Virus record (IMG/VR): IMGVR_UViG_2711768046_000005
Reading direction: 5' to 3' (one strand)
Source of the DNA: a virus
Taxonomy: Duplodnaviria; Heunggongvirae; Uroviricota; Caudoviricetes
Length of the DNA: 35,930 nt
The position numbers and the translations under genes were made by a program. Positions 22,848 to 35,336 of this stretch are shown here, piece after piece. A model generated the notes under the pieces. It did no database searches. It was not told the DNA's origin and saw only the letters and a program-made list of their open reading frames with translations. Every line of letters starts with the position of its first letter. Position 1 is the stretch's first letter.

Positions 22848-24620
22848 ATGACCATCACCACAGACACCACTCTTTTACACGACCCGCGTCGTCAGGCGGC
22901 GCTGCTGTACTGGCAGGGGTTTTCCGTGCCGCAGATTGCCGCCATGTTGCAGATGAAACGCCCGACGGTGCAGAGCTGGAAACAGCGCGACGGCTGGGAC
23001 AGCGTTGCCCCCATCAGCCGTGTCGAAATGAGTCTGGAAGCGCGACTGACCCAGCTCATCATCAAACCGCAGAAAACCGGTGGTGACTTCAAGGAAATTG
23101 ACCTGCTCGGACGCCAGATTGAACGACTGGCACGGGTAAACCGCTACAGTCAGACCGGCAACGAGGCAGACCTTAATCCGAACGTCGCTAACCGCAACAA
23201 AGGCGGGCGTCGCAAACCGAAAAAGAATTTTTTCAGTGACGAGGCCATCGAAAAGCTGGAGCAGATTTTCTTTGAGCAGTCTTTCGACTATCAGTTGCAC
23301 TGGTATCGCGCCGGGCTTGAGCACCGCATCCGCGATATCCTGAAATCCCGCCAGATTGGCGCGACGTTTTATTTTTCCCGCGAGGCGCTGCTGCGCGCCC
23401 TGAAAACCGGCCATAACCAGATTTTTCTGTCGGCCAGTAAAACGCAGGCGTATGTGTTCCGCGAATACATCATTGCCTTTGCCCGGCTGGTTGACGTTGA
23501 CCTGACCGGTGACCCGATTGTCCTGGGCAATAACAGCGCAAAACTGATTTTTCTCGGCACCAACTCCAACACCGCACAGAGCCATAACGGCGACCTGTAC
23601 GTCGATGAGATTTTCTGGATCCCGAATTTTCAGGTACTGCGTAAGGTGGCATCAGGTATGGCCTCACAGAGTCACCTGCGCTCGACCTATTTCTCCACCC
23701 CGTCCACGCTGGCGCACGACGCCTACCCGTTCTGGTCGGGTGAACTGTTCAACCGGGGACGCGCCAGCGCCGCCGAACGCGTGGAAATCGACATCAGTCA
23801 TAACGCCCTTGCCGGAGGTCTTCTCTGTGCGGACGGCCAGTGGCGGCAGATTGTCACCATTGAGGACGCCCTGAAAGGTGGCTGCACGCTGTTCGACATT
23901 GAGCAGCTCAAACGTGAAAACAGCGCCGACGATTTTAAAAACCTGTTCATGTGTGAATTTGTTGACGATAAGGCGTCGGTGTTCCCGTTCGAGGAGCTGC
24001 AACGCTGCATGGTCGACACGCTGGAAGAATGGGAAGACTATGCGCCGTTTGCCGCCAATCCGTTCGGCTCCCGCCCGGTATGGATTGGTTACGACCCGTC
24101 ACACCGTGGCGACAGCGCCGGATGCGTGGTGCTGGCACCGCCGGTGGTGGCCGGTGGCAAATTCAGAATACTTGAGCGTCACCAGTGGAAAGGCATGGAC
24201 TTTGCCACCCAGGCTGAATCCATCCGCAAACTCACCGAAAAATACAACGTCGAATACATCGGTATTGATGCCACCGGCCTCGGTGTCGGCGTGTTCCAGC
24301 TCGTGCGCTCGTTCTATCCCGCCGCGCGCGACATCCGCTACACGCCGGAAATGAAAACCGCAATGGTGCTCAAGGCAAAAGACGTCATCCGCCGTGGCTG
24401 TCTGGAATATGACGTCAGCGCCACCGACATCACCAGCTCGTTTATGGCTATCCGCAAGACCATGACCAGCAGCGGACGCAGCGCCACCTATGAGGCCAGC
24501 CGCAGCGAGGAAGCCAGCCACGCCGACCTCGCCTGGGCGACCATGCACGCCCTGTTAAATGAGCCACTCACCGCCGGTATCAGCACCCCGCTGACATCCA
24601 CCATTCTGGAGTTTTACTGA
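22848..24620 (+). CDS. P: Terminase large (ATPase) subunit P
   Basis: 590 aa from the internal ATG (MTITTDTTLLHDPRRQ...), with GAGG ribosome-binding site. P2 gpP length. Divergent from O. Confidence 0.9.
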   Translation: MTITTDTTLLHDPRRQAALLYWQGFSVPQIAAMLQMKRPTVQSWKQRDGWDSVAPISRVEMSLEARLTQLIIKPQKTGGDFKEIDLLGRQIERLARVNRYSQTGNEADLNPNVANRNKGGRRKPKKNFFSDEAIEKLEQIFFEQSFDYQLHWYRAGLEHRIRDILKSRQIGATFYFSREALLRALKTGHNQIFLSASKTQAYVFREYIIAFARLVDVDLTGDPIVLGNNSAKLIFLGTNSNTAQSHNGDLYVDEIFWIPNFQVLRKVASGMASQSHLRSTYFSTPSTLAHDAYPFWSGELFNRGRASAAERVEIDISHNALAGGLLCADGQWRQIVTIEDALKGGCTLFDIEQLKRENSADDFKNLFMCEFVDDKASVFPFEELQRCMVDTLEEWEDYAPFAANPFGSRPVWIGYDPSHRGDSAGCVVLAPPVVAGGKFRILERHQWKGMDFATQAESIRKLTEKYNVEYIGIDATGLGVGVFQLVRSFYPAARDIRYTPEMKTAMVLKAKDVIRRGCLEYDVSATDITSSFMAIRKTMTSSGRSATYEASRSEEASHADLAWATMHALLNEPLTAGISTPLTSTILEFY

Positions 24621-25654
24621 TGAGCAAGAAAAAAGGGAAAACACCGCAACCTGCGGCAAAAAAAATGACCGCCAGCGCCCCGAAAATGGAGGCATTCACC
24701 TTTGGTGAGCCGGTGCCGGTACTCGACCGCCGTGACATTCTGGATTACGTCGAGTGCATCAGTAACGGCAGATGGTATGAGCCGCCGGTCAGCTTTACCG
24801 GTCTGGCGAAAAGCCTGCGTGCTGCCGTGCATCACAGCTCGCCGATTTACGTCAAACGCAATATTCTGGCCTCGACATTTATCCCGCATCCGTGGCTTTC
24901 CCAGCAGGATTTCAGCCGCTTTGTGCTGGATTTTCTGGTGTTCGGTAATGCGTTTCTGGAAAAGCGTTACAGCACCACCGGTAAGGTCATCAGACTGGAA
25001 ACCTCACCGGCAAAATATACCCGCCGTGGCGTGGAGGAGGATGTTTACTGGTGGGTGCCGTCCTTCAACGAGCCGACAGCCTTCACGCCCGGCTCCGTGT
25101 TTCACCTGCTGGAGCCGGATATTAATCAGGAGCTGTACGGCCTGCCGGAATATCTCAGCGCCCTTAACTCTGCCTGGCTGAATGAGTCGGCCACGCTGTT
25201 CCGCCGCAAGTATTACGAAAATGGCGCACATGCCGGATACATCATGTACGTCACCGATGCCGTGCAGGATCGCAACGATATCGAAATGCTTCGCGAAAAC
25301 ATGGTTAAGTCGAAAGGCCGCAATAACTTTAAAAATCTGTTTCTCTATGCCCCGCAGGGGAAAGCCGACGGCATTAAAATTATCCCCCTCAGTGAAGTGG
25401 CGACGAAGGACGATTTTTTTAATATCAAAAAAGCCAGCGCCGCAGACCTGCTGGACGCGCACCGCATCCCCTTTCAGTTGATGGGCGGCAAGCCGGAGAA
25501 CGTCGGGTCGCTGGGTGATATTGAGAAAGTGGCAAAGGTCTTTGTCCGCAATGAGCTTATCCCGCTACAGGACAGGATCCGCGAGATAAACGGCTGGCTC
25601 GGTCAGGAGGTCATCCGCTTTAAAAACTACTCACTGGACACTGACAACGGCTGA
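24620..25654 (+). CDS. Q: Portal protein Q
   Basis: 344 aa, P2 gpQ length. Start overlaps the P stop. Confidence 0.9.
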   Translation: MSKKKGKTPQPAAKKMTASAPKMEAFTFGEPVPVLDRRDILDYVECISNGRWYEPPVSFTGLAKSLRAAVHHSSPIYVKRNILASTFIPHPWLSQQDFSRFVLDFLVFGNAFLEKRYSTTGKVIRLETSPAKYTRRGVEEDVYWWVPSFNEPTAFTPGSVFHLLEPDINQELYGLPEYLSALNSAWLNESATLFRRKYYENGAHAGYIMYVTDAVQDRNDIEMLRENMVKSKGRNNFKNLFLYAPQGKADGIKIIPLSEVATKDDFFNIKKASAADLLDAHRIPFQLMGGKPENVGSLGDIEKVAKVFVRNELIPLQDRIREINGWLGQEVIRFKNYSLDTDNG

Positions 25655-25681: not shown

Positions 25682-25822
25682 ACATCCCGTCATCACGCCC
25701 TCACACGCTCACCACCGCACAAAACACCCCGCAGACACACAACGCCTCAACGGGCAGACTAAGCGCCGTCACGACGCGCTGAGACGCTAAAAAAATACAA
25801 TCAGCACCACCGTCAGCGCGCA

Positions 25823-25841
25823 GTGCTTTCCCCACCTCGCC
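25823..25841. other. Putative cos site (19-nt cohesive end, ggcgaggtggggaaagcac on the minus strand)
   Basis: Differs at one position from the P2 cos sequence as I recall it (GGCGAGGCGGGGAAAGCAC). Located just downstream of Q, as in P2. Confidence 0.5.
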
Positions 25842-25884
25842 CGCCCGCTTCATGGGTCGGTTTTAATGCAGTTGTATTTAATGG

Positions 25885-25915
25885 AAAAAGCCCTCCAGGA
25901 CTGGAGGGCTTTTCT
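25885..25915. terminator. Bidirectional intrinsic terminator (end of the kinase operon; backup for Q)
   Basis: Perfect 10-bp stem agccctccag / ctggagggct, flanked by AAAA upstream and TTTCT downstream. Lies 55 bp past the kinase 2 stop. Confidence 0.65.
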
Positions 25916-25969
25916 ATTAGAGTTCGTAAAATGCTCATGCAAATTCACGCGTTATGCTGCAAAAAACAA

Positions 25970-27037
25970 TCATTTCTTAGCTTTCACAACCGGATGCGCG
26001 CGATCATGTCCACCGCCACGATGCTTAGAAAATATAACCTTTTCATTAGTAAAAGGTTTTTGGCCATAGACACTATCATAGTGGAAAAAGACGTTCGGAA
26101 GATGAGGCACACGGATGAATCCATACTTCACTCTAGTATCACCGATGACCCCAAAAACCCTTGTACTTACTGGGTAGCATAGTTCACCACAACGCATCAC
26201 TAATTCATCTGCTGTTGGGCGTTCAGAAGGTTCCAATTTTAAACAATCTTCTATAAGTTTAATTATTTCATTTGCCAATGGCGCATACTGTCTATTTGAA
26301 AATATAAAGTCAGGGTAAGGAACATGCGTGCCAGAAAGTATTTTTGGTATAGCCATATAACCAATACCAAAAGGGTATTTTCCAGTAAGAATCCTGAACA
26401 TCATCGCACCCAATGCCCAAATATCTGTAGGTTTCGAAACCTTACCTTGACTCTGTATGATTTCCGGTGCCATATATGGCAAAGCCCCGATAGCCGTTTG
26501 CGAAGAACTAATTGAATCTTGACCATTTCTTGCAGCCTCATCAATTTCATCTCCGGCCATCTTTGAAATGCCGAAATCCGTAATTTTTATCTCTGTAGCA
26601 TTGATACCACCGCCTACCATTATATTTGAAGGTTTGAGGTCCCGGTGTATGACGTCAACATGATGCGAAGCAGACAGAGCTTTAGCTAAATTATGAAATA
26701 TTTTAGCAGTTAAATATGGATCAACACTTGAATAAGTGTCTAAAATAGCCTTATCCAAGTCAACTCCATCAATAAATTCCTCCGTTAAAAACTCTCTACC
26801 CTCATCATCAATGAAGTAATCTAAGGTTTTAGCCACATTAGGATGATTAACCCTTGATGCTAATATTGCACTTCTATGAAACCTTTTTTCAGCAGATTTA
26901 TTTTTGGGAGTTTTGAGAGCCACATGCCTCGAGAGAATATTATCCATTGCCAAATAAACTTTTTGCATACCGCCTTCACCAATCTCCCTCAATATTGTAT
27001 ATCTGCTAACTTGAATTCCTGGAGTCAGATTTATCAT
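25970..27037 (-). CDS. Hanks-type Ser/Thr protein kinase with C-terminal cold-shock-like OB-fold domain (third gene of the cargo operon)
   Basis: 355 aa. Kinase motifs GEGGMQKVY, VALK, HRDLKPSN, DFG, PYMAPE and DIWALG are all intact. C-terminal aa 292-338 (FGVIGDTRVKYGFIRV...NVFFHYDSV...EKVIFS) resemble CspA RNP1/RNP2. GGAGG ribosome-binding site; ATGA overlap with the upstream gene. AT-rich. Confidence 0.85.
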   Translation of the reverse strand: MINLTPGIQVSRYTILREIGEGGMQKVYLAMDNILSRHVALKTPKNKSAEKRFHRSAILASRVNHPNVAKTLDYFIDDEGREFLTEEFIDGVDLDKAILDTYSSVDPYLTAKIFHNLAKALSASHHVDVIHRDLKPSNIMVGGGINATEIKITDFGISKMAGDEIDEAARNGQDSISSSQTAIGALPYMAPEIIQSQGKVSKPTDIWALGAMMFRILTGKYPFGIGYMAIPKILSGTHVPYPDFIFSNRQYAPLANEIIKLIEDCLKLEPSERPTADELVMRCGELCYPVSTRVFGVIGDTRVKYGFIRVPHLPNVFFHYDSVYGQKPFTNEKVIFSKHRGGGHDRAHPVVKAKK

Positions 27038-28098
27038 AACACCACCTCCGGATGGGAAAGGTCAAATGTAATGAAGACCCGCTCTTTTCTTGGCCGAGAA
27101 GTCTCTCCCAGAATAATAACACATGAATCAGGCAAAATATTATATTGCTTTGCAGCTATATTATTCACATACACCTCACCACTTAAACTCGATATATAAA
27201 ACTCTGAACCAGAATATTTCACCTCAATAGTCCCGACCCCTGAATTATTAAAAGCCGCAGATTTATTTGTTGAAGAAATGATGACGGGTGGAGTGTTATC
27301 AGAGATTAACAATGCTCTATGAGAGTTGTAGAGAACGAATTTTTTTAGAGTCTGACACACATCAGCCATATCAGGTCTCTCACAAGGATTCGTATCTAAA
27401 CATTGGAAAAGCAATTCTTTTACCTGAGTTGGTAACTGTATATTAGAATTATCAAAAGGATTAGACAATAATTTTTTGGGTAAAACTCTCATTTCCGGTG
27501 GTAGTGGGGTCTTAGCCAAAAACATGGCCGTTACAGCAAAAGCATATGTATCTATGGATTTTGTAAACGCTACTTGATGTAAAAATAATTCAGGTGCAGC
27601 ATATGTTGGGGTTCCTTTAAAACCTATTGTATTAGCTTCATCAACATTTCTAGATAGTCCGAAGTCATAAATCTTCACTACTCCCTCAGAATCAATTTTC
27701 ATGTTCCCAGGCTTGATATCCCTATGAATAATATCATGAGAATGTATCTCAGAAATACCCGAAGATATTTGCCACAAAATTTTAATCAAATCTTCAGAAT
27801 TTAATATGCGATCCTCTACTTCCAATAATGAAGGTCCGTCAACATACTCTTCGACTATAGCAATTCCTTTACCTTGATAATTAATAACATCATAAAGCTC
27901 TACTACATGTTTTGATCTTAATTTCATCAATGCTGATAACTCATCCATCATTCGAGGAGAATCATCAGGATTACTTATGGACTTTATAGCGACAAATCTT
28001 TCGAGGTGAGTATCCAAGCATTTGATCACGCAACCAAATCCTCCCGAAGCCTCTTCTTCAGTCCTCTTATATCTTGCAGGGAGAGTAAAATTAGTCAT
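27034..28098 (-). CDS. Hanks-type Ser/Thr protein kinase with C-terminal FHA-like region (second gene of the cargo operon)
   Basis: 354 aa. Kinase motifs SGGFGCV, VAIK, HRDIKPGN, DFG and GTPTYAAPE are intact. C-terminal aa 262-345 have an FHA-like pattern (SLSGEVYVNN...ILPDSCVIILGE) but lack the canonical Arg/His. AAGGAG ribosome-binding site; 8-nt overlap with the phosphatase gene. Confidence 0.85.
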   Translation of the reverse strand: MTNFTLPARYKRTEEEASGGFGCVIKCLDTHLERFVAIKSISNPDDSPRMMDELSALMKLRSKHVVELYDVINYQGKGIAIVEEYVDGPSLLEVEDRILNSEDLIKILWQISSGISEIHSHDIIHRDIKPGNMKIDSEGVVKIYDFGLSRNVDEANTIGFKGTPTYAAPELFLHQVAFTKSIDTYAFAVTAMFLAKTPLPPEMRVLPKKLLSNPFDNSNIQLPTQVKELLFQCLDTNPCERPDMADVCQTLKKFVLYNSHRALLISDNTPPVIISSTNKSAAFNNSGVGTIEVKYSGSEFYISSLSGEVYVNNIAAKQYNILPDSCVIILGETSRPRKERVFITFDLSHPEVVL

Positions 28099-29257
28099 CT
28101 TTATCTCCTTTAGTGGAGTTTTTCTCAGAGAATGAAATATCTAACTGTGAAATATTATCTAACTTATCATTATTGTTAGCTTCGATAACATTCCTTCCCT
28201 CATCACTCTTTATATTACTATTTTTTTTCTTTGTACGTGATTTCCTTTTCGATACATTTTTTTTGTTAGAAATTTCATTACTGCATTCTAACTCAGTAAC
28301 TTTTCTATCAATAACATTTTCAACCGTAGCTGAGTTAGGTATATCTAACGGCGCAGGTTGCACGCTAATTACTTTCATCTCACCAAAAGGATCCCATAAA
28401 TTAATTACATCCCCAGATGATACATCCAAAGCACTTAGGATGTTCGAAATCTCAACTACCGCAATCGACGCATTATCAAATCCACCAAACCAACTAGCTA
28501 GATCTATAACTCTTTTAGCGAACACTCCAGTATTATTGGAGTGAGCATATAATTTTCTCAAATTATTACTGTCAATGGTATGAGCACCATCTGAAGTTAA
28601 TGCAACCACCCCAGGTACGAGCCGAATATCGTGAAAATGTATCTCAAGAACACCATCAAGACCTATAAACTGTACTAACTCGCCACCTAACCTAGAATCA
28701 ATAACACCTGAGTCACTACCAAGATGCTCATTATATTTCTTTGCCAATACAGCTAATGTATCATCCTCACTAATTTGTTTTATGTGTTCAGCATTAATGG
28801 AATATATGCGACTATCCCCGACATTTATTGCTGTAATGTTATCGGAGTCATCTACAGCTAAGGCAGATAACGTAGCCCCACCGTTCCCATTATATACTTT
28901 CAAAACCGATTCATTTGCTTTTAAAACGGCGATTTCAAGACATTGTCTAATTGGCAAGCCTGAGTGTTTAATTATCTCGGTAAAAAAAGATGATACGGTC
29001 AATGAAGCAGCATTCGCTCCCCCTTCCATCCCCCCCATACCATCTGCTAAAGCGATGACAATCATGTCCTTATTCTTACTAAAAGGACGAAATTTTAATA
29101 CAGCTACCCGGTCTTGGTTCTCTTTCCTAACTAAACCTATGTCTGTAGCAATAGCTGCAGGTAGCATAGATACTCTTCGTACAGATGAAGAGATATTTTT
29201 TCTATGCAGCCAAGCGTGTATCTGTTCATGAAGGATCTCGTAAGAGTCTCGACTCAC
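28091..29257 (-). CDS. PP2C-family (PPM) Ser/Thr phosphatase with Lys/Asn-rich low-complexity C-terminal tail (first gene of the cargo operon)
   Basis: 388 aa from a GTG start with AGGAGG upstream; an alternative ATG start lies at 29167. PPM motifs TDIGLVRKENQDR, ALADGMGG, NVGDSRIY, LTSDGAHT and DNASIAVV are present. The tail (aa 272-388) is rich in K, N, S and D. Confidence 0.8.
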   Translation of the reverse strand: MSRDSYEILHEQIHAWLHRKNISSSVRRVSMLPAAIATDIGLVRKENQDRVAVLKFRPFSKNKDMIVIALADGMGGMEGGANAASLTVSSFFTEIIKHSGLPIRQCLEIAVLKANESVLKVYNGNGGATLSALAVDDSDNITAINVGDSRIYSINAEHIKQISEDDTLAVLAKKYNEHLGSDSGVIDSRLGGELVQFIGLDGVLEIHFHDIRLVPGVVALTSDGAHTIDSNNLRKLYAHSNNTGVFAKRVIDLASWFGGFDNASIAVVEISNILSALDVSSGDVINLWDPFGEMKVISVQPAPLDIPNSATVENVIDRKVTELECSNEISNKKNVSKRKSRTKKKNSNIKSDEGRNVIEANNNDKLDNISQLDISFSEKNSTKGDKDD

Positions 29258-29478
29258 AGCGCCTCCTCAAGCAAGCATTTCTCCGAAGCTATAGATTACA
29301 AAACACTAACGGCAATTCCTAGCATTACCCACTCAATTCCATTAGAAAACTGACGTAGTACAGTTAGTTGAATATTATTGTGATGACGAATGCCAATCCT
29401 CTGATCACGCTGATTACAATATCACAACTCCCCGCTCTCCGATTCACAGTATTCAGTGATACAGAATATCACCTCGTA

Positions 29479-31764
29479 CTATATACATCGTTGATTTATT
29501 GGAAGCCCCGGCCACTCATCAACAACCGGATATGTAAATTTTTTCTCGCCATATGCCACCCTCGCACCTCGTGCTAGTACATCCAGCTCCCACCGTTCCG
29601 GCGTGATGCCATGCTGTGCGAGGTCAAACCGGATACGCGATATCTGGTCGCGCTGCGATTTAGTCAGCCTTGCCGATGGCGCAATTTCATTAGGTTTTAA
29701 CGGGCCTCCGTTTCTCTGCTGACGATTTGGTGTTCTCAGGCCGTGTTTTAATGCGCCCCTGAGCGCCCTCACTACATCCGGGTCATTCCATTCGATAACA
29801 CCTTCATCAACCAGATTAAGTACTGCTGCGGCGTGCTCAGAAGGTGTGGGAGCCGGTAACGAAGTATCACCACCAGTGAGCTTTCCACAGTTATTGACAG
29901 GACTCCGAGGCGCGACGATGCCGCTTTTTAAAGTCAAAGGCTCAACGACCGGAACTTTCGGCACAATGCGCCAGTCCGTCGTTCTGGTGATATGAATATG
30001 ACGCGCGCCGAGATGCGGCGCGTAAATGCCGACCACTCTCTCGACTTCTTCCTCGTACTCGTTAACTTCATCCGACGGGCTACGGGCGACTCTGACAGTC
30101 TGACAATCGCGCGGGACATTTGCCCCACCCTGCGCGCTGATATACAACGCAAAATCACCACTGTCTGCGGCGGCGCGTGCAGCCTCGACGCGCTCGTCAA
30201 ACTCATCAGCAATGCTGACGCCGCGCGGCAATTTGCGTAGTTCACGGTAAGCCCCCATTGTCGGCAGGCCAACCGTTTTAAATTGCGGGATGCGCCACGT
30301 TGACGCCCATGCGGTAACAGCCGCTGCAGTGTCTTTCAGCGGCCTGCCGGTGTCGTTATCGAGCTGACCATCCAGTGCATAGCCGTCGATGTTTTTTGAA
30401 ATGTATTTCGCGATATATCCCGCAGCACCGCCCCGGTTAAGGTGTTTTGCCTGAAAACGGTTTCGCGCGGCTCCTCTTTCGTCGCCATCCTCTTTGAGCG
30501 CATAGCGACGCATGATTTCGATAATCTGGTTACGCTGGCGTGAATTACAAAAAAGCATCATATGCCAGTGCGGCGTTCCGTCGTGGTGTGGCTCGACGAC
30601 ACGCAAACCGTAGACCTGTAAATCATTATCCTTGAATGCCGTGCGCATCAGGCTCCAGATACGGCAGAGATAACGCTGCGCATCCTTTGGATTAAATGCC
30701 TCATCGTTCCAGCCGTGATTAAGCTGCACGGTTTTACTTTCGCCTTTTCCTACCTGACGTGTCGGGTGATACTTTGACGGCGCGGTCAGCGTGATAAACA
30801 TCCCCACATCACCCTCTGCAGCGGCGTAACGCTCAATACCGGCAATGGTGTTCATCAGCTCCATCCGGCGAATTTCAGGATTAGAAATACTGCCCATCAC
30901 CTTACTGATAAGGTCGATGCGCTCGCCGGTTTCCCTGTTTTCAAGGTCACACGATTTAAGAAATTCCAGATTTGCCTGGCGGCGCGCACGCACATCACGA
31001 ATGGCGTGTTTACTGGCATAAGGAGAACGGTCTTTATTGACCTCCCCGACAGCTATCAGTAACGCTTCATGCCAGCGCATACGCTGGCCTTTAAGCTGAT
31101 GAGTCCACCACTCATCGTTAAACAGACGGGCAATGGCAGAATATGCCTGCCTCGTGGTCATCTGTCCTTTACGGTATTTTTTCCAGTAGAGCGGGGAAAT
31201 ATTGAAAGCACGTGCAGCGCCAGCAACATGACCATACAGGTGAGCCTGCGCCTCATCCGTAAACAGCGATTCTTTTTCACCATGCGCATCAACCCATGCA
31301 TCGCAGAGTTCCTCATACATCATGAAAAGCTGCGATGAGATACGGGCGGCAAACTTTTTCAGCTCCTTGTCATTCATTCCCGGCAGGCGCGCATAGTGGT
31401 CACGCTCTGCCAGAAACAGCAACGACGCGTCGGTGTTCATTTCATGGCGCTGATTCACACGCTCAATGCGCGGCCATAAACGACGCTGAAAAGTAGATGT
31501 GAGGAAATAAAACCCGTGCACCGGGCTTTTATTGCGCCGGATGTAGTCATAGCGTGAAGTAAACAGCGAGCGCAAAAAGTAAGGCAGGCGGTTAATCGTG
31601 GATAAAACACCTTGCACCTGACGCATCTCGTCACGTGTAAGAGGTCTTTCGCGCCCGACAGCCTCGCGTGGCGCGTTCCATGCATAAGCACCGGTAAATG
31701 CCTTACCGGTGCCTGCGGTAAATGCTGACGGAGGGACAAAACACCCGGAGGCTTTAACGGCCAT
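29479..31764 (-). CDS. A: Replication initiation protein A (rolling-circle nickase)
   Basis: 761 aa from the internal ATG (MAVKASG...), P2 gpA length. Conserved HxH nickase region (EPHHDGTPHWHMM) and active-site Tyr region (AGYIAKYISKNIDGY). Confidence 0.9.
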   Translation of the reverse strand: MAVKASGCFVPPSAFTAGTGKAFTGAYAWNAPREAVGRERPLTRDEMRQVQGVLSTINRLPYFLRSLFTSRYDYIRRNKSPVHGFYFLTSTFQRRLWPRIERVNQRHEMNTDASLLFLAERDHYARLPGMNDKELKKFAARISSQLFMMYEELCDAWVDAHGEKESLFTDEAQAHLYGHVAGAARAFNISPLYWKKYRKGQMTTRQAYSAIARLFNDEWWTHQLKGQRMRWHEALLIAVGEVNKDRSPYASKHAIRDVRARRQANLEFLKSCDLENRETGERIDLISKVMGSISNPEIRRMELMNTIAGIERYAAAEGDVGMFITLTAPSKYHPTRQVGKGESKTVQLNHGWNDEAFNPKDAQRYLCRIWSLMRTAFKDNDLQVYGLRVVEPHHDGTPHWHMMLFCNSRQRNQIIEIMRRYALKEDGDERGAARNRFQAKHLNRGGAAGYIAKYISKNIDGYALDGQLDNDTGRPLKDTAAAVTAWASTWRIPQFKTVGLPTMGAYRELRKLPRGVSIADEFDERVEAARAAADSGDFALYISAQGGANVPRDCQTVRVARSPSDEVNEYEEEVERVVGIYAPHLGARHIHITRTTDWRIVPKVPVVEPLTLKSGIVAPRSPVNNCGKLTGGDTSLPAPTPSEHAAAVLNLVDEGVIEWNDPDVVRALRGALKHGLRTPNRQQRNGGPLKPNEIAPSARLTKSQRDQISRIRFDLAQHGITPERWELDVLARGARVAYGEKKFTYPVVDEWPGLPINQRCI

Positions 31765-32029
31765 ATGAGCCAAAAGCCTCTGAACAACGCTTGCTGAGTT
31801 GCTCAACCTGCGCGTTTAAATCAGCAAAAGATTTTGCGCTTCCGGTCAGAATATCGTGATGCATCAGGCCGGAAACGAGCTGGCCTAATTTCGGGTAATA
31901 ACCAACCACCGCCAGCCATTCCTGACCGGCGTTTTTACCGCTTTCCGCTCTCTTTTTCTCGTGGAGAATAAACTGAAAGCTGTCACTGGTAACGACATAA
32001 CGTTCGCCAATTTCAATACGAATACTCAT
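31754..32029 (-). CDS. Small early protein (P2 orf83-like)
   Basis: 91-aa ORF immediately upstream of A with an 11-nt overlap. Position as in the P2 early operon. Confidence 0.55.
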   Translation of the reverse strand: MSIRIEIGERYVVTSDSFQFILHEKKRAESGKNAGQEWLAVVGYYPKLGQLVSGLMHHDILTGSAKSFADLNAQVEQLSKRCSEAFGSYGR

Positions 32030-34322: not shown

Positions 34323-35336
34323 ATGGCAATCAAAAAACTCGATGATGGTCGATATGAAGTGGACATCCGCCCTACTGGACGTAATGGAAAACGCATCCGT
34401 AGGAAGTTTGATAAGAAAAGCGAAGCTGTCGCTTTCGAGAAATACACGTTGTACAACCACCACAATAAAGAATGGCTATCAAAACCAACAGACAAGCGAC
34501 GTCTGTCGGAGCTGACACAGATCTGGTGGGATTTAAAGGGTAAACACGAAGAGCATGGGAAATCTAATCTTGGAAAAATTGAAATCTTCACAAAAATAAC
34601 GAATGACCCATGCGCATTTCAAATTACGAAATCGCTTATCAGCCAGTACTGCGCCACCCGAAGAAGTCAGGGTATTAAACCTTCGAGTATCAATCGTGAT
34701 TTAACATGTATTAGCGGCATGTTTACAGCCCTGATTGAAGCGGAGTTATTCTTTGGTGAGCACCCTATCAGAGGGACAAAAAGGCTTAAGGAGGAAAAAC
34801 CAGACACAGGCTATCTCACGCAGGAAGAAATTGCCTTACTGCTTGCTGCTCTTGACGGCGACAACAAAAAGATTGCGATTCTTTGCCTGAGTACTGGAGC
34901 ACGTTGGGGAGAAGCAGCTCGTTTGAAAGCAGAAAATATCATCCATAACCGCGTCACGTTTGTTAAAACGAAAACAAACAAACCACGCACCGTCCCGATC
35001 TCAGAGGCTGTTGCCAAAATGATCGCGGATAACAAACGAGGTTTTTTATTCCCTGATGCTGATTACCCTCGCTTCAGACGAACAATGAAAGCAATAAAAC
35101 CGGATTTGCCAATGGGGCAAGCCACACATGCACTAAGGCACAGCTTTGCCACTCATTTCATGATTAATGGAGGAAGTATTATCACGCTACAACGGATACT
35201 AGGTCACACGCGGATTGAGCAAACTATGGTTTACGCTCATTTTGCGCCAGAGTACCTTCAGGACGCCATTTCTCTTAATCCGCTAAGAGGTGGTACTGAG
35301 GCCGAGAGTGTCCACACAGTGTCCACAGTAGAGTAA
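34323..35336 (+). CDS. int: Tyrosine integrase
   Basis: 337 aa, P2 Int length. Catalytic signature ARWGEA ... HALRHSFAT ... LGH ... VYAH. Ends 80 bp before attR. Confidence 0.9.
   Translation: MAIKKLDDGRYEVDIRPTGRNGKRIRRKFDKKSEAVAFEKYTLYNHHNKEWLSKPTDKRRLSELTQIWWDLKGKHEEHGKSNLGKIEIFTKITNDPCAFQITKSLISQYCATRRSQGIKPSSINRDLTCISGMFTALIEAELFFGEHPIRGTKRLKEEKPDTGYLTQEEIALLLAALDGDNKKIAILCLSTGARWGEAARLKAENIIHNRVTFVKTKTNKPRTVPISEAVAKMIADNKRGFLFPDADYPRFRRTMKAIKPDLPMGQATHALRHSFATHFMINGGSIITLQRILGHTRIEQTMVYAHFAPEYLQDAISLNPLRGGTEAESVHTVSTVE

What the first reader, a model, noticed from the sequence alone, without database searches (positions are those of the whole stretch)
26024..26164. Cold-shock-like OB-fold appended to the third-gene kinase: possible nucleic-acid sensor
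Residues about 292-338 of the distal kinase (FGVIGDTRVKYGFIRV-PHLPNVFFHYDSVYGQKP-EKVIFS) align by eye with the CspA core (KGFGFI RNP1-like and VFVHF RNP2-like elements). A kinase fused to a single-stranded nucleic-acid-binding module suggests activation by phage ssDNA or RNA intermediates. I do not recognise this fusion from known systems.
Basis: inference. Interest (0 to 1): 0.6.

Follow-up and report, generated by a model that had tools for sequence, protein, structure and literature searches.

The report
Cold-shock domain of a KKP kinase

Summary
Residues 292-338 of the 355-aa kinase (window 25970-27037, minus strand) lie in a genuine cold-shock domain (CSD). A family profile hits solved CSDs (Unr 3e-9, CspB 3.9e-6). 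41 of 53 homologous tails hit Pfam CSD. An AlphaFold model (pLDDT 91) superposes on CspA, CspB, Unr and YB-1 at TM 0.75-0.83.

The fusion is not new. The operon PP2C phosphatase, then kinase with an FHA-like tail, then kinase with a CSD, sits between the P2 portal gene and replication gene A. This matches the KKP module PfpC-PfkB-PfkA of Guo et al. 2024 (PMC11341870), where a kinase-CSD with a conserved GFI motif is called the defining feature.

In published homologues the GFI motif is needed for kinase toxicity and phage defence. Toxicity appears without any phage once the phosphatase is missing. Both known triggers (T4 Gp59, Pf4 RepG4) act on the phosphatase. The "phage ssDNA/RNA sensor" idea is therefore not supported, though what the CSD binds is still untested.

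Verdict: already known; low interest.

The parts
28091..29257 (-). pfpC-like PP2C Ser/Thr phosphatase (388 aa, GTG start). It is the antitoxin and phage-sensing component of KKP. The C-terminal ~90 aa form a K/N/S/D-rich low-complexity tail.
   Evidence: Pfam PP2C_2 PF13672 E=4.7e-6, 26.7 bits against a cutoff of 24. RefSeq calls it a PP2C family phosphatase.
29262..29268 (-). Shine-Dalgarno GAGGAGG, 4 nt upstream of the GTG start of the phosphatase gene.
   Evidence: Read directly from the sequence.
27034..28098 (-). pfkB-like Ser/Thr kinase (354 aa). Its start overlaps the phosphatase stop by 8 nt.
   Evidence: Pkinase PF00069 E=1.7e-42, residues 18-249. GGF19, AIK37-39, HRD125, DFG145 and APE168 are present.
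27058..27315 (-). Divergent FHA-like beta-sandwich at the C-terminus of the pfkB-like kinase (residues about 262-347).
   Evidence: AF2 pLDDT 91.2. Foldseek hits are weak but nearly all FHA domains: Pml1, Rv0020c FHA, Rad53 FHA1, EmbR, with E 0.01-1 and TM 0.5-0.6. No Pfam FHA hit in any of 37 family members and no PDB sequence hit.
25970..27037 (-). pfkA-like Ser/Thr kinase (355 aa). Its start overlaps the pfkB-like stop by 4 nt. The kinase domain is residues 13-280 (window 26198-27001).
   Evidence: Pkinase PF00069 E=4.7e-45. GGM22, ALK40-42, HRD131, DFG154 and APE190 are present. It belongs to a family of ~355-aa proteins with 54-83% identity across Proteobacteria and beyond.
25979..26167 (-). 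Cold-shock domain of the pfkA-like kinase (residues about 291-353). This is the feature the finding is about.
   Evidence: as set out in the observation check.
26114..26122 (-). GFI motif (G306-F307-I308) in the RNP1-like element KYGFI. In published PfkA homologues this is the motif whose mutation abolishes toxicity and defence.
   Evidence: Sequence. GFI is present in 110 of the 120 full-length homologues.
26078..26092 (-). RNP2-like element VFFHY (residues 316-320).
   Evidence: In an alignment with CspA and CspB, F27 is replaced by F in 120/120 tails and H29 by H in 112/120.
25885..25910 (-). Intrinsic-terminator-like hairpin (AGCCCTCCA-GTCC-TGGAGGGCT followed by a T run), about 60 nt downstream of the pfkA-like stop codon.
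   Evidence: Consensus scan and direct reading of the sequence.

Best explanation
The region is the C-terminal cold-shock domain of the PfkA-type kinase of a KKP (kinase-kinase-phosphatase) module. The module sits as low-GC cargo in the old/tin hotspot of a P2-like E. coli prophage, between portal gene Q and replication gene A.

Mechanism, taken from experiments on homologues. The two kinases act jointly as a toxin: they phosphorylate many host proteins and arrest growth. The PP2C phosphatase is the antitoxin. Phage infection is sensed at the phosphatase: T4 Gp59 inhibits it, and Pf4 RepG4 destabilises it. This unleashes the kinases.

The CSD is therefore not the phage sensor. It is an output-side module that the kinase pair needs in order to be active.

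Inference on what the CSD does. It retains the core aromatic platform of RNP1 and RNP2 and is unusually basic. Most likely it tethers or activates the kinase pair on single-stranded RNA or DNA, or on nucleic-acid-bound substrates, possibly while also contributing to the PfkA-PfkB interface.
For: Identity as a KKP module:
- The operon is PP2C, then kinase, then kinase, on one strand, with overlaps of 8 and 4 nt.
- The distal kinase carries a CSD with a GFI motif.
- The middle kinase has an FHA-like fold.
- The module lies between the portal gene and the replication endonuclease of a P2-like prophage, in an island of 36-39% GC against about 55% in the flanks.
- The published definition of KKP has the same order, the same domains and the same P2 context.
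- Mass-spectrometry peptides of a His-tagged PfkA in the paper's supplement, which carry the GFI motif as the P. aeruginosa PfkA does, match the family consensus of this tail: ELLCYAK, NIFYNAYGFIARPLNDDVFFNQSSVYGPR, CFSMFIGGGAWR, AHPVMILDE.
- The same triad sits next to integrases in Pseudoalteromonas and Caballeronia.

Mechanism:
- The GFI mutant and the CSD truncation abolish PfkA/PfkB toxicity in the absence of phage.
- The GFI or GFA mutation abolishes defence.
- Gp59 binds and inhibits PfpC of an E. coli KKP.
- RepG4 triggers PfpC degradation.

CSD surface:
- The positions equivalent to CspB F15, F17, F27 and H29 are kept in 119, 120, 120 and 112 of 120 tails.
- Net charge of this tail is +7 and the family mean is +2.6, against -1 for CspA and -6 for CspB.
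- Many reported substrates are nucleic-acid-associated: MvaU, TopA, PolA, DnaG, InfB, RpoD.
Against: - No experiment was done on this exact locus. I could not establish whether the tested E. coli module (strain 15EC039) is the same as this one.
- The FHA domain of the middle kinase is undetectable by Pfam here and only weakly supported by fold.
- Nucleic-acid binding by any PfkA CSD is untested.
- Several classical contact positions are lost: W8 becomes D/E/N, F38 becomes P, R56 becomes G, and F30 is variable.
- The paper attributes part of the PfkA-PfkB interaction to the terminal domains, so the CSD could be purely a protein-interaction module.
Confidence: 0.85

Rival explanations
1. The CSD is mainly a protein-protein interaction module. 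It docks PfkA onto PfkB (for example onto its FHA-like domain or kinase lobe) or onto substrates, and it does not bind nucleic acid.
For: [quoted passage not shown]
- Half of the classical Csp nucleic-acid contacts are replaced: W8 by D/E/N, F38 by P, R56 by G.
- There are family-specific invariant motifs that free Csps lack: LCY, SVYG and GGGxDRAHPV.
- Among the fold hits is the S1-like domain of DBC1, which binds a protein, SIRT1 (8ez6).
Against: - The four core aromatic and histidine residues of RNP1 and RNP2 are almost invariant.
- The published loss-of-function mutation lies in RNP1 (the GFI motif).
- The tail is strongly basic.
- The two roles are not mutually exclusive.
Confidence: 0.3
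2. One reading: the CSD is the sensor. The kinase is switched on when the CSD binds phage ssDNA or RNA replication intermediates.
For: - It is a genuine CSD with a retained aromatic platform and a basic charge.
- The known T4 trigger, Gp59, is itself a protein that works at ssDNA and replication forks (this point is from general knowledge), so a nucleic-acid co-signal is conceivable.
- The in vitro inhibition of PfpC by Gp59 was only modest.
Against: - PfkA plus PfkB are fully toxic without phage once PfpC is absent, and that toxicity already requires the CSD and the GFI motif.
- Expressing Gp59 alone, without infection, triggers toxicity.
- A second trigger also acts through PfpC.
- No phage escape mutation points to a nucleic acid.
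Confidence: 0.1
3. The locus belongs to another kinase-based defence system (PD-T4-6, the MADS mad6 kinase, Mokosh MkoA, BREX PglW, Stk2 or the TerY-P triad) rather than to KKP.
For: PADLOC's best hits for both kinases are mad6 (1e-54 and 2e-52) and PD-T4-6 models (down to 4.5e-50). MkoA and PglW models are also hit.
Against: - All those matches cover only the kinase domain, roughly residues 5-290.
- None covers the CSD or FHA-like tails, and the phosphatase has no PADLOC hit.
- The partner genes of MADS, Mokosh and BREX are absent from the island.
- PD-T4-6 and Stk2 are single-gene systems, and TerY-P needs a vWA protein (these two points are from general knowledge).
- PADLOC 2.0.0 dates from 2023 and predates the KKP publication.
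Confidence: 0.03

Closest known systems
KKP module PfpC-PfkB-PfkA of Pseudomonas Pf6 prophage and its homologues in E. coli 15EC039, Salmonella, Shewanella and Vibrio (Guo et al. 2024, Nat Commun, PMC11341870)
   Same: - Gene order is phosphatase, then kinase(FHA), then kinase(CSD).
- A PP2C_2 domain is present.
- Both kinases have intact GG(M/F), HRD and DFG motifs.
- The CSD carries a GFI motif.
- The module is prophage cargo between P2 portal and gene A.
- The tail consensus matches the PfkA peptides published in the paper's supplement.
   Different: - This exact allele was not shown to be one of the tested modules.
- Its middle-kinase tail does not reach any Pfam FHA score and looks like a degenerate FHA.
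- Its CSD alone is below the Pfam CSD gathering score.
Free bacterial cold-shock proteins CspA and CspB (PF00313)
   Same: - Five-stranded beta-barrel, with TM 0.75-0.83 and rmsd 1.7-2.2 A.
- The core residues of RNP1 and RNP2 (F15, F17, F27, H29) are retained.
   Different: - It is fused to a kinase rather than free-standing.
- The equivalents of W8, F38 and R56 are lost, and RNP1 is one residue shorter.
- It has extra invariant motifs: LCY, SVYG and GGGxDRAHPV.
- It has a net basic charge.
- Only 20-28% identity.
Eukaryotic Unr/CSDE1 multi-CSD proteins
   Same: They are the best sequence-profile hit (7zhh, 3e-9). In the 1.84-billion-protein library, many of the strongest hits outside the family are proteins with 4-8 matched stretches.
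   Different: Those proteins are RNA-binding translation regulators with tandem CSDs and no kinase. The similarity is at the domain level only.
Stk2 of Staphylococcus and PD-T4-6 (single-gene Ser/Thr kinase anti-phage systems)
   Same: A eukaryotic-like Ser/Thr kinase phosphorylates many host proteins to abort infection.
   Different: They are single genes, with no cognate phosphatase antitoxin, no second kinase and no CSD. The PADLOC matches cover the kinase domain only.

Membership tests
KKP (kinase-kinase-phosphatase) module | Three co-oriented adjacent genes in the order PP2C phosphatase, kinase, kinase | tested here: met
   The genes are 28091-29257, 27034-28098 and 25970-27037, all on the minus strand, overlapping by 8 and 4 nt. 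The same order is found in Pseudoalteromonas and Caballeronia loci.
KKP (kinase-kinase-phosphatase) module | The first gene has a PP2C phosphatase domain (PF13672) | tested here: met
   PP2C_2 E=4.7e-6, 26.7 bits against a cutoff of 24.
KKP (kinase-kinase-phosphatase) module | Both kinases have a Pkinase domain (PF00069) with intact GG(M/F), HRD and DFG motifs | tested here: met
   E=1.7e-42 and 4.7e-45. The motifs were located.
KKP (kinase-kinase-phosphatase) module | The distal kinase (PfkA) carries a C-terminal cold-shock domain with a GFI/A motif | tested here: met
   Profile, Pfam, AF2 and Foldseek results. GFI lies at residues 306-308.
KKP (kinase-kinase-phosphatase) module | The middle kinase (PfkB) carries a C-terminal FHA domain (PF00498) | tested here: inconclusive
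   No Pfam FHA hit in this protein or in 36 homologous tails, and no PDB sequence hit. The AF2 model (pLDDT 91.2) has FHA domains as nearly all of its top Foldseek hits, but weakly: E 0.01-1, TM 0.5-0.6.
KKP (kinase-kinase-phosphatase) module | Tripartite toxin-antitoxin behaviour and anti-phage activity, triggered through the phosphatase | not testable with these tools
   Shown only for homologues in the literature.
KKP (kinase-kinase-phosphatase) module | Typical context: cargo of a temperate prophage (P2, P4, Mu or Pf), in P2 between Phage_portal and Phage_GPA | tested here: met
   Portal gene at 24620-25654 and replication endonuclease at 29479-31806 flank the island. There is a GC drop to 36-39%.
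Cold-shock domain (Pfam PF00313, OB fold) | Five-stranded antiparallel beta-barrel that superposes on solved CSDs | tested here: met
   AF2 pLDDT 91.1, five strands. TM 0.75-0.83 to CspA, CspB, Unr and YB-1.
Cold-shock domain (Pfam PF00313, OB fold) | Sequence score above the Pfam gathering threshold | tested here: not met
   This sequence alone scores 17.8-18.2 bits against 27. At family level 41 of 53 tails match with E<=0.01, the best at 2.3e-9, and the family profile hits solved CSDs at 3e-9. Homology is therefore supported despite the sub-threshold single score.
Cold-shock domain (Pfam PF00313, OB fold) | RNP1 (KGFGFI) and RNP2 (VFVHF) nucleic-acid-binding motifs | tested here: met
   KYGFI and VFFHY. 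The equivalents of F15, F17, F27 and H29 are conserved in 93-100% of 120 tails. The peripheral contacts W8, F38 and R56 are not conserved.
Cold-shock domain (Pfam PF00313, OB fold) | Binds single-stranded DNA or RNA | not testable with these tools
   I found no binding data for any PfkA CSD.

The most novel reading that the evidence does not exclude
The PfkA CSD provides a second, nucleic-acid input. Full kinase activation would need both loss of phosphatase control (Gp59 or RepG4) and binding of the CSD to ssDNA or RNA that accumulates during phage replication. KKP would then be a coincidence detector that targets replication and translation proteins sitting on those nucleic acids.
Probability: 0.1. 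Interest if true: 0.55.

Novelty: already known. Interest (0 to 1): 0.15.

Why it matters
It matters little as a discovery. The kinase-CSD fusion, its GFI motif, its requirement for toxicity and defence, and its presence in P2 prophages were published in 2022 (preprint) and 2024.

Practical value:
- These genes are annotated in RefSeq only as generic kinases and a PP2C phosphatase, and PADLOC 2.0.0 sees them only as PD-T4-6 or mad6-like kinases. They can be annotated as a KKP module.
- One question remains open: what the CSD binds, and why the kinase pair needs it. That is directly testable with the residues mapped here (Y305, F307, F317, H319).

Tried and rejected
1. A word-indexed homologue search with the 77-aa tail alone returned only 3 fragments. 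The full-length search was needed.
2. I tried to tie this exact locus to the experimentally tested E. coli 15EC039 module. The RefSeq accessions WP_021546119, WP_000181134 and WP_125075118, and peptides of this locus, are absent from the paper's supplements, which use IMG gene ids and MCM accessions. This stays unresolved.
3. PADLOC gave only kinase-domain matches to PD-T4-6, mad6, MkoA and PglW, and nothing for the phosphatase. I rejected membership in those systems because the matches stop at the kinase domain and the partner genes are absent.
4. Sequence-level detection of FHA in the middle kinase failed with both Pfam and PDB profiles. Only the fold search points to FHA, and weakly.
5. The promoter scan of the island found no more sites than shuffled sequence gives (11 against 12.7 expected), so I propose no promoter.

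Full report
**What is at the coordinates.**
- Window 26024-26164 on the minus strand encodes residues 292-338 of a 355-aa ORF (25970-27037).
- This ORF is the last of three tightly coupled minus-strand genes.
  - A 388-aa PP2C phosphatase at 28091-29257 (PF13672, 26.7 bits against a cutoff of 24).
  - A 354-aa Ser/Thr kinase at 27034-28098 (PF00069, 1.7e-42).
  - The 355-aa Ser/Thr kinase (PF00069, 4.7e-45).
- The genes overlap by 8 and 4 nt. A GAGGAGG Shine-Dalgarno precedes the GTG start of the phosphatase. A 9-bp GC-rich hairpin with a T run follows the last stop codon.
- The three genes form an island of 36-39% GC in a background of about 55%. The island lies between a P2-type portal gene (24620-25654) and the replication endonuclease gene A (29479-31806).
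- The window as a whole is a P2-like prophage of E. coli. It runs from a host U32 peptidase gene at the left end to an integrase at 34323-35336.
- The exact island is present in 14 of 5426 complete E. coli genomes. It is annotated there only as "PP2C family phosphatase" and "serine/threonine-protein kinase".

**Is the C-terminal tail a cold-shock domain?** Yes.
- On its own, the 76-aa tail gives sub-threshold but specific hits: Pfam CSD E=0.0031 and S1-like E=0.0057, and among PDB sequences only a CSDE1 cold-shock domain and CspB.
- The kinase belongs to a large, well-conserved family of ~355-aa proteins, 54-83% identical across Gamma- and Betaproteobacteria and beyond. The tails of these proteins align without difficulty.
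- A profile of 53 tails hits 45 PDB sequences, nearly all of them cold-shock or related S1-like domains. The best are Drosophila Unr CSD789 at 3e-9, CspB at 3.9e-6 and CSDE1 at 8.3e-6.
- 41 of the 53 tails individually hit PF00313, the best at 2.3e-9.
- AlphaFold2 on this alignment gives pLDDT 91.1 and five strands.
- The top 43 Foldseek hits in the PDB are cold-shock domains or the related S1-like domain (CspA, CspB, CspE, Unr, YB-1, YBX2, CRHSP-24, DBC1). TM to CspA, CspB, Unr and YB-1 is 0.75-0.83, and rmsd to CspA and CspB is 1.7-2.2 A.
- The domain covers residues about 291-353 (window 25979-26167).

**What it is.**
- The literature search found the system at once. Guo et al. 2024 (Nat Commun 15:7244, PMC11341870; preprint 2022) describe the KKP module PfpC-PfkB-PfkA.
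- It is a PP2C phosphatase followed by two Ser/Thr kinases with divergent C-termini. PfkB has an FHA domain. [quoted passage not shown]
- More than 1200 clusters were found, over 90% of them in temperate prophages including P2, P4, Mu-like and Pf6-like elements. The P2 neighbourhoods shown include Phage_portal and Phage_GPA. The authors state that the kinase-CSD fusion may be the defining feature of KKP.
- The window's operon matches this definition in gene order, domains, kinase motifs (GGM/GGF, HRD, DFG), the GFI motif (residues 306-308) and genomic context.
- Mass-spectrometry peptides of a His-tagged PfkA printed in the paper's supplement line up with the consensus of the tail family built here (LCY...YGFI...DVFFH..SVYG...FS.F.GGGAxRAHPV). 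The peptides are ELLCYAK, NIFYNAYGFIARPLNDDVFFNQSSVYGPR, CFSMFIGGGAWR and AHPVMILDE. They carry GFI, as the paper reports for the P. aeruginosa PfkA.
- Two distant family members, in Pseudoalteromonas and Caballeronia, sit in the same phosphatase-kinase-kinase triad next to integrases.

**The one feature that is not cleanly met** is the FHA domain of the middle kinase.
- No Pfam FHA hit is obtained for this protein or for 36 homologous tails, and a profile finds nothing in PDB sequences.
- A confident model (pLDDT 91.2) does have FHA domains as almost all of its top fold matches: Pml1, Rv0020c FHA, Rad53 FHA1 and EmbR. The scores are weak, with E 0.01-1 and TM 0.5-0.6.
- I read it as a divergent FHA-like beta-sandwich.

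**How it works (shown for homologues, inferred for this locus).**
- PfkA and PfkB are individually harmless but jointly toxic.
- PfpC neutralises them through its phosphatase activity.
- Kinase-dead mutations in both kinases, C-terminal truncations, and the GFI mutation in the CSD all abolish toxicity.
- The kinases phosphorylate each other and many host proteins, including MvaU, TopA, PolA, DnaG, InfB, Tsf, FtsZ and MinCE.
- KKP modules from Pseudomonas, Shewanella, Vibrio, Salmonella and E. coli 15EC039 protect against lytic phages. [quoted passage not shown] Defence is lost in GFI or GFA mutants.
- T4 escape mutants map to Gp59. Gp59 expression alone triggers toxicity, and Gp59 binds and modestly inhibits PfpC.
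- A later paper shows that Pf4 RepG4 triggers the kinases by causing PfpC degradation.
- Sensing therefore happens at the phosphatase.

- The CSD is required for kinase toxicity even when no phage is present. Both known triggers act on PfpC.
- The proposal that the CSD is a sensor switched on by phage ssDNA or RNA is therefore not supported.
- What the CSD binds has not been tested in any paper I could find.
- From the alignment with CspA and CspB, the central aromatic platform is kept.
  - F15 is replaced by W, Y or F in 119 of 120 tails.
  - F17 is replaced by F or Y in 120 of 120.
  - F27 stays F in 120 of 120.
  - H29 stays H in 112 of 120.
- Peripheral contacts are lost: W8 becomes D/E/N, F38 becomes P, R56 becomes G, and F30 is variable.
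- The family has its own invariant motifs: LCY, SVYG and GGGxDRAHPV.
- The tails are basic. This one has net charge +7 and the family mean is +2.6, against -1 for CspA and -6 for CspB.
- My preferred reading is an inference. The CSD is an output-side module that tethers or activates the kinase pair on single-stranded nucleic acid or on nucleic-acid-bound substrates.
- The main rival is a purely protein-protein role in the PfkA-PfkB complex. The authors' pulldowns and modelling also suggest this.

**Relation to other systems.**
- PADLOC 2.0.0 (2023) has no KKP model. Both kinases hit PD-T4-6, mad6, MkoA and PglW models, but only across the kinase domain, and the phosphatase hits nothing.
- Those systems have different architectures, and their partner genes are absent here.
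- A search of 1.84 billion representative proteins with the tail profile found 601 hits at E<=0.001. They are of two kinds. One is single-domain hits at the very C-terminus of ~355-365-aa proteins or their fragments, which are the PfkA family. The other is long proteins with 4-8 matched stretches, consistent with Unr/CSDE1-like multi-CSD proteins.
- This agrees with Unr being the best PDB hit.

**Verdict.** The structural interpretation (a cold-shock OB fold) is right. The claim of novelty is wrong, and the sensor mechanism is contradicted by published genetics on homologues. The feature is an already known, defining part of the KKP module. The only open point is the ligand of the CSD.

Noticed in passing
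window 8752-10086 (+): A 444-aa FRG-domain protein (PF08867, 2.8e-22) lies in a second low-GC island (about 36% GC) between the tail-sheath and tail-fibre-assembly genes, which from memory is the P2 Z/fun hotspot position. It matches the PADLOC candidate defence family PDC-S15 at 6.7e-99. An FRG-domain gene also lies about 6 kb from the KKP triad in the Caballeronia locus L003.
   Followed up: partly
window 15530-16273 (+): A 247-aa ORF on the opposite strand to its neighbours, in a lower-GC stretch (about 46%) between the baseplate spike gene V (14811-15515) and the tail-completion genes. It has no Pfam or PADLOC hit. It may be further unknown cargo at the P2 orf30 position.
   Followed up: partly
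protein P0001 (99 aa, on 4 contigs, longest 295 kb), related to window 25970-29257: A chimeric ORF. Its first ~47 residues match the N-terminus of the PP2C phosphatase (MSRDSYEILHE...IGLVRKEN) and the rest is the C-terminal CSD of the PfkA-like kinase (AYGFIRIP...HPVIKAK). It looks like an in-frame deletion remnant of a KKP module that removed both kinase domains.
   Followed up: no
window 27058-27315 (-), C-terminal domain of the middle kinase: The FHA-like domain is invisible to Pfam FHA in all 37 family tails. By eye it lacks the canonical G-R and S-x-x-H phosphothreonine-binding motifs, while keeping an FHA-like 'GEV.VNN....LP.SCV..LG' segment. It may be a degenerate FHA that does not bind phosphopeptide.
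   Followed up: partly
window 28091-28360 (-), C-terminal ~90 aa of the PP2C phosphatase: A long low-complexity tail rich in K, N, S, D and E (...NKKNVSKRKSRTKKKNSNIKSDEGRN...KNSTKGDKDD) follows the phosphatase domain. Its role in antitoxin stability or trigger binding is unknown.
   Followed up: no
Klebsiella phage Kp4865-2, OK490418.1 8633-9664: An isolated phage genome encodes a full-length homologue of the kinase-CSD protein (45% identity over residues 12-351), with a second kinase match in the same record. KKP-like modules therefore also occur in sequenced Klebsiella phages. The record carries no annotation.
   Followed up: no
window 25800-29500 compared with complete E. coli genomes: Only 14 of 5426 complete genomes carry this island. 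About 380 further genomes match only the flanking P2 portal or gene A sequence, consistent with a variable cargo hotspot. One copy lies on a 43-kb record of strain NDM2 that is classed as a plasmid.
   Followed up: no
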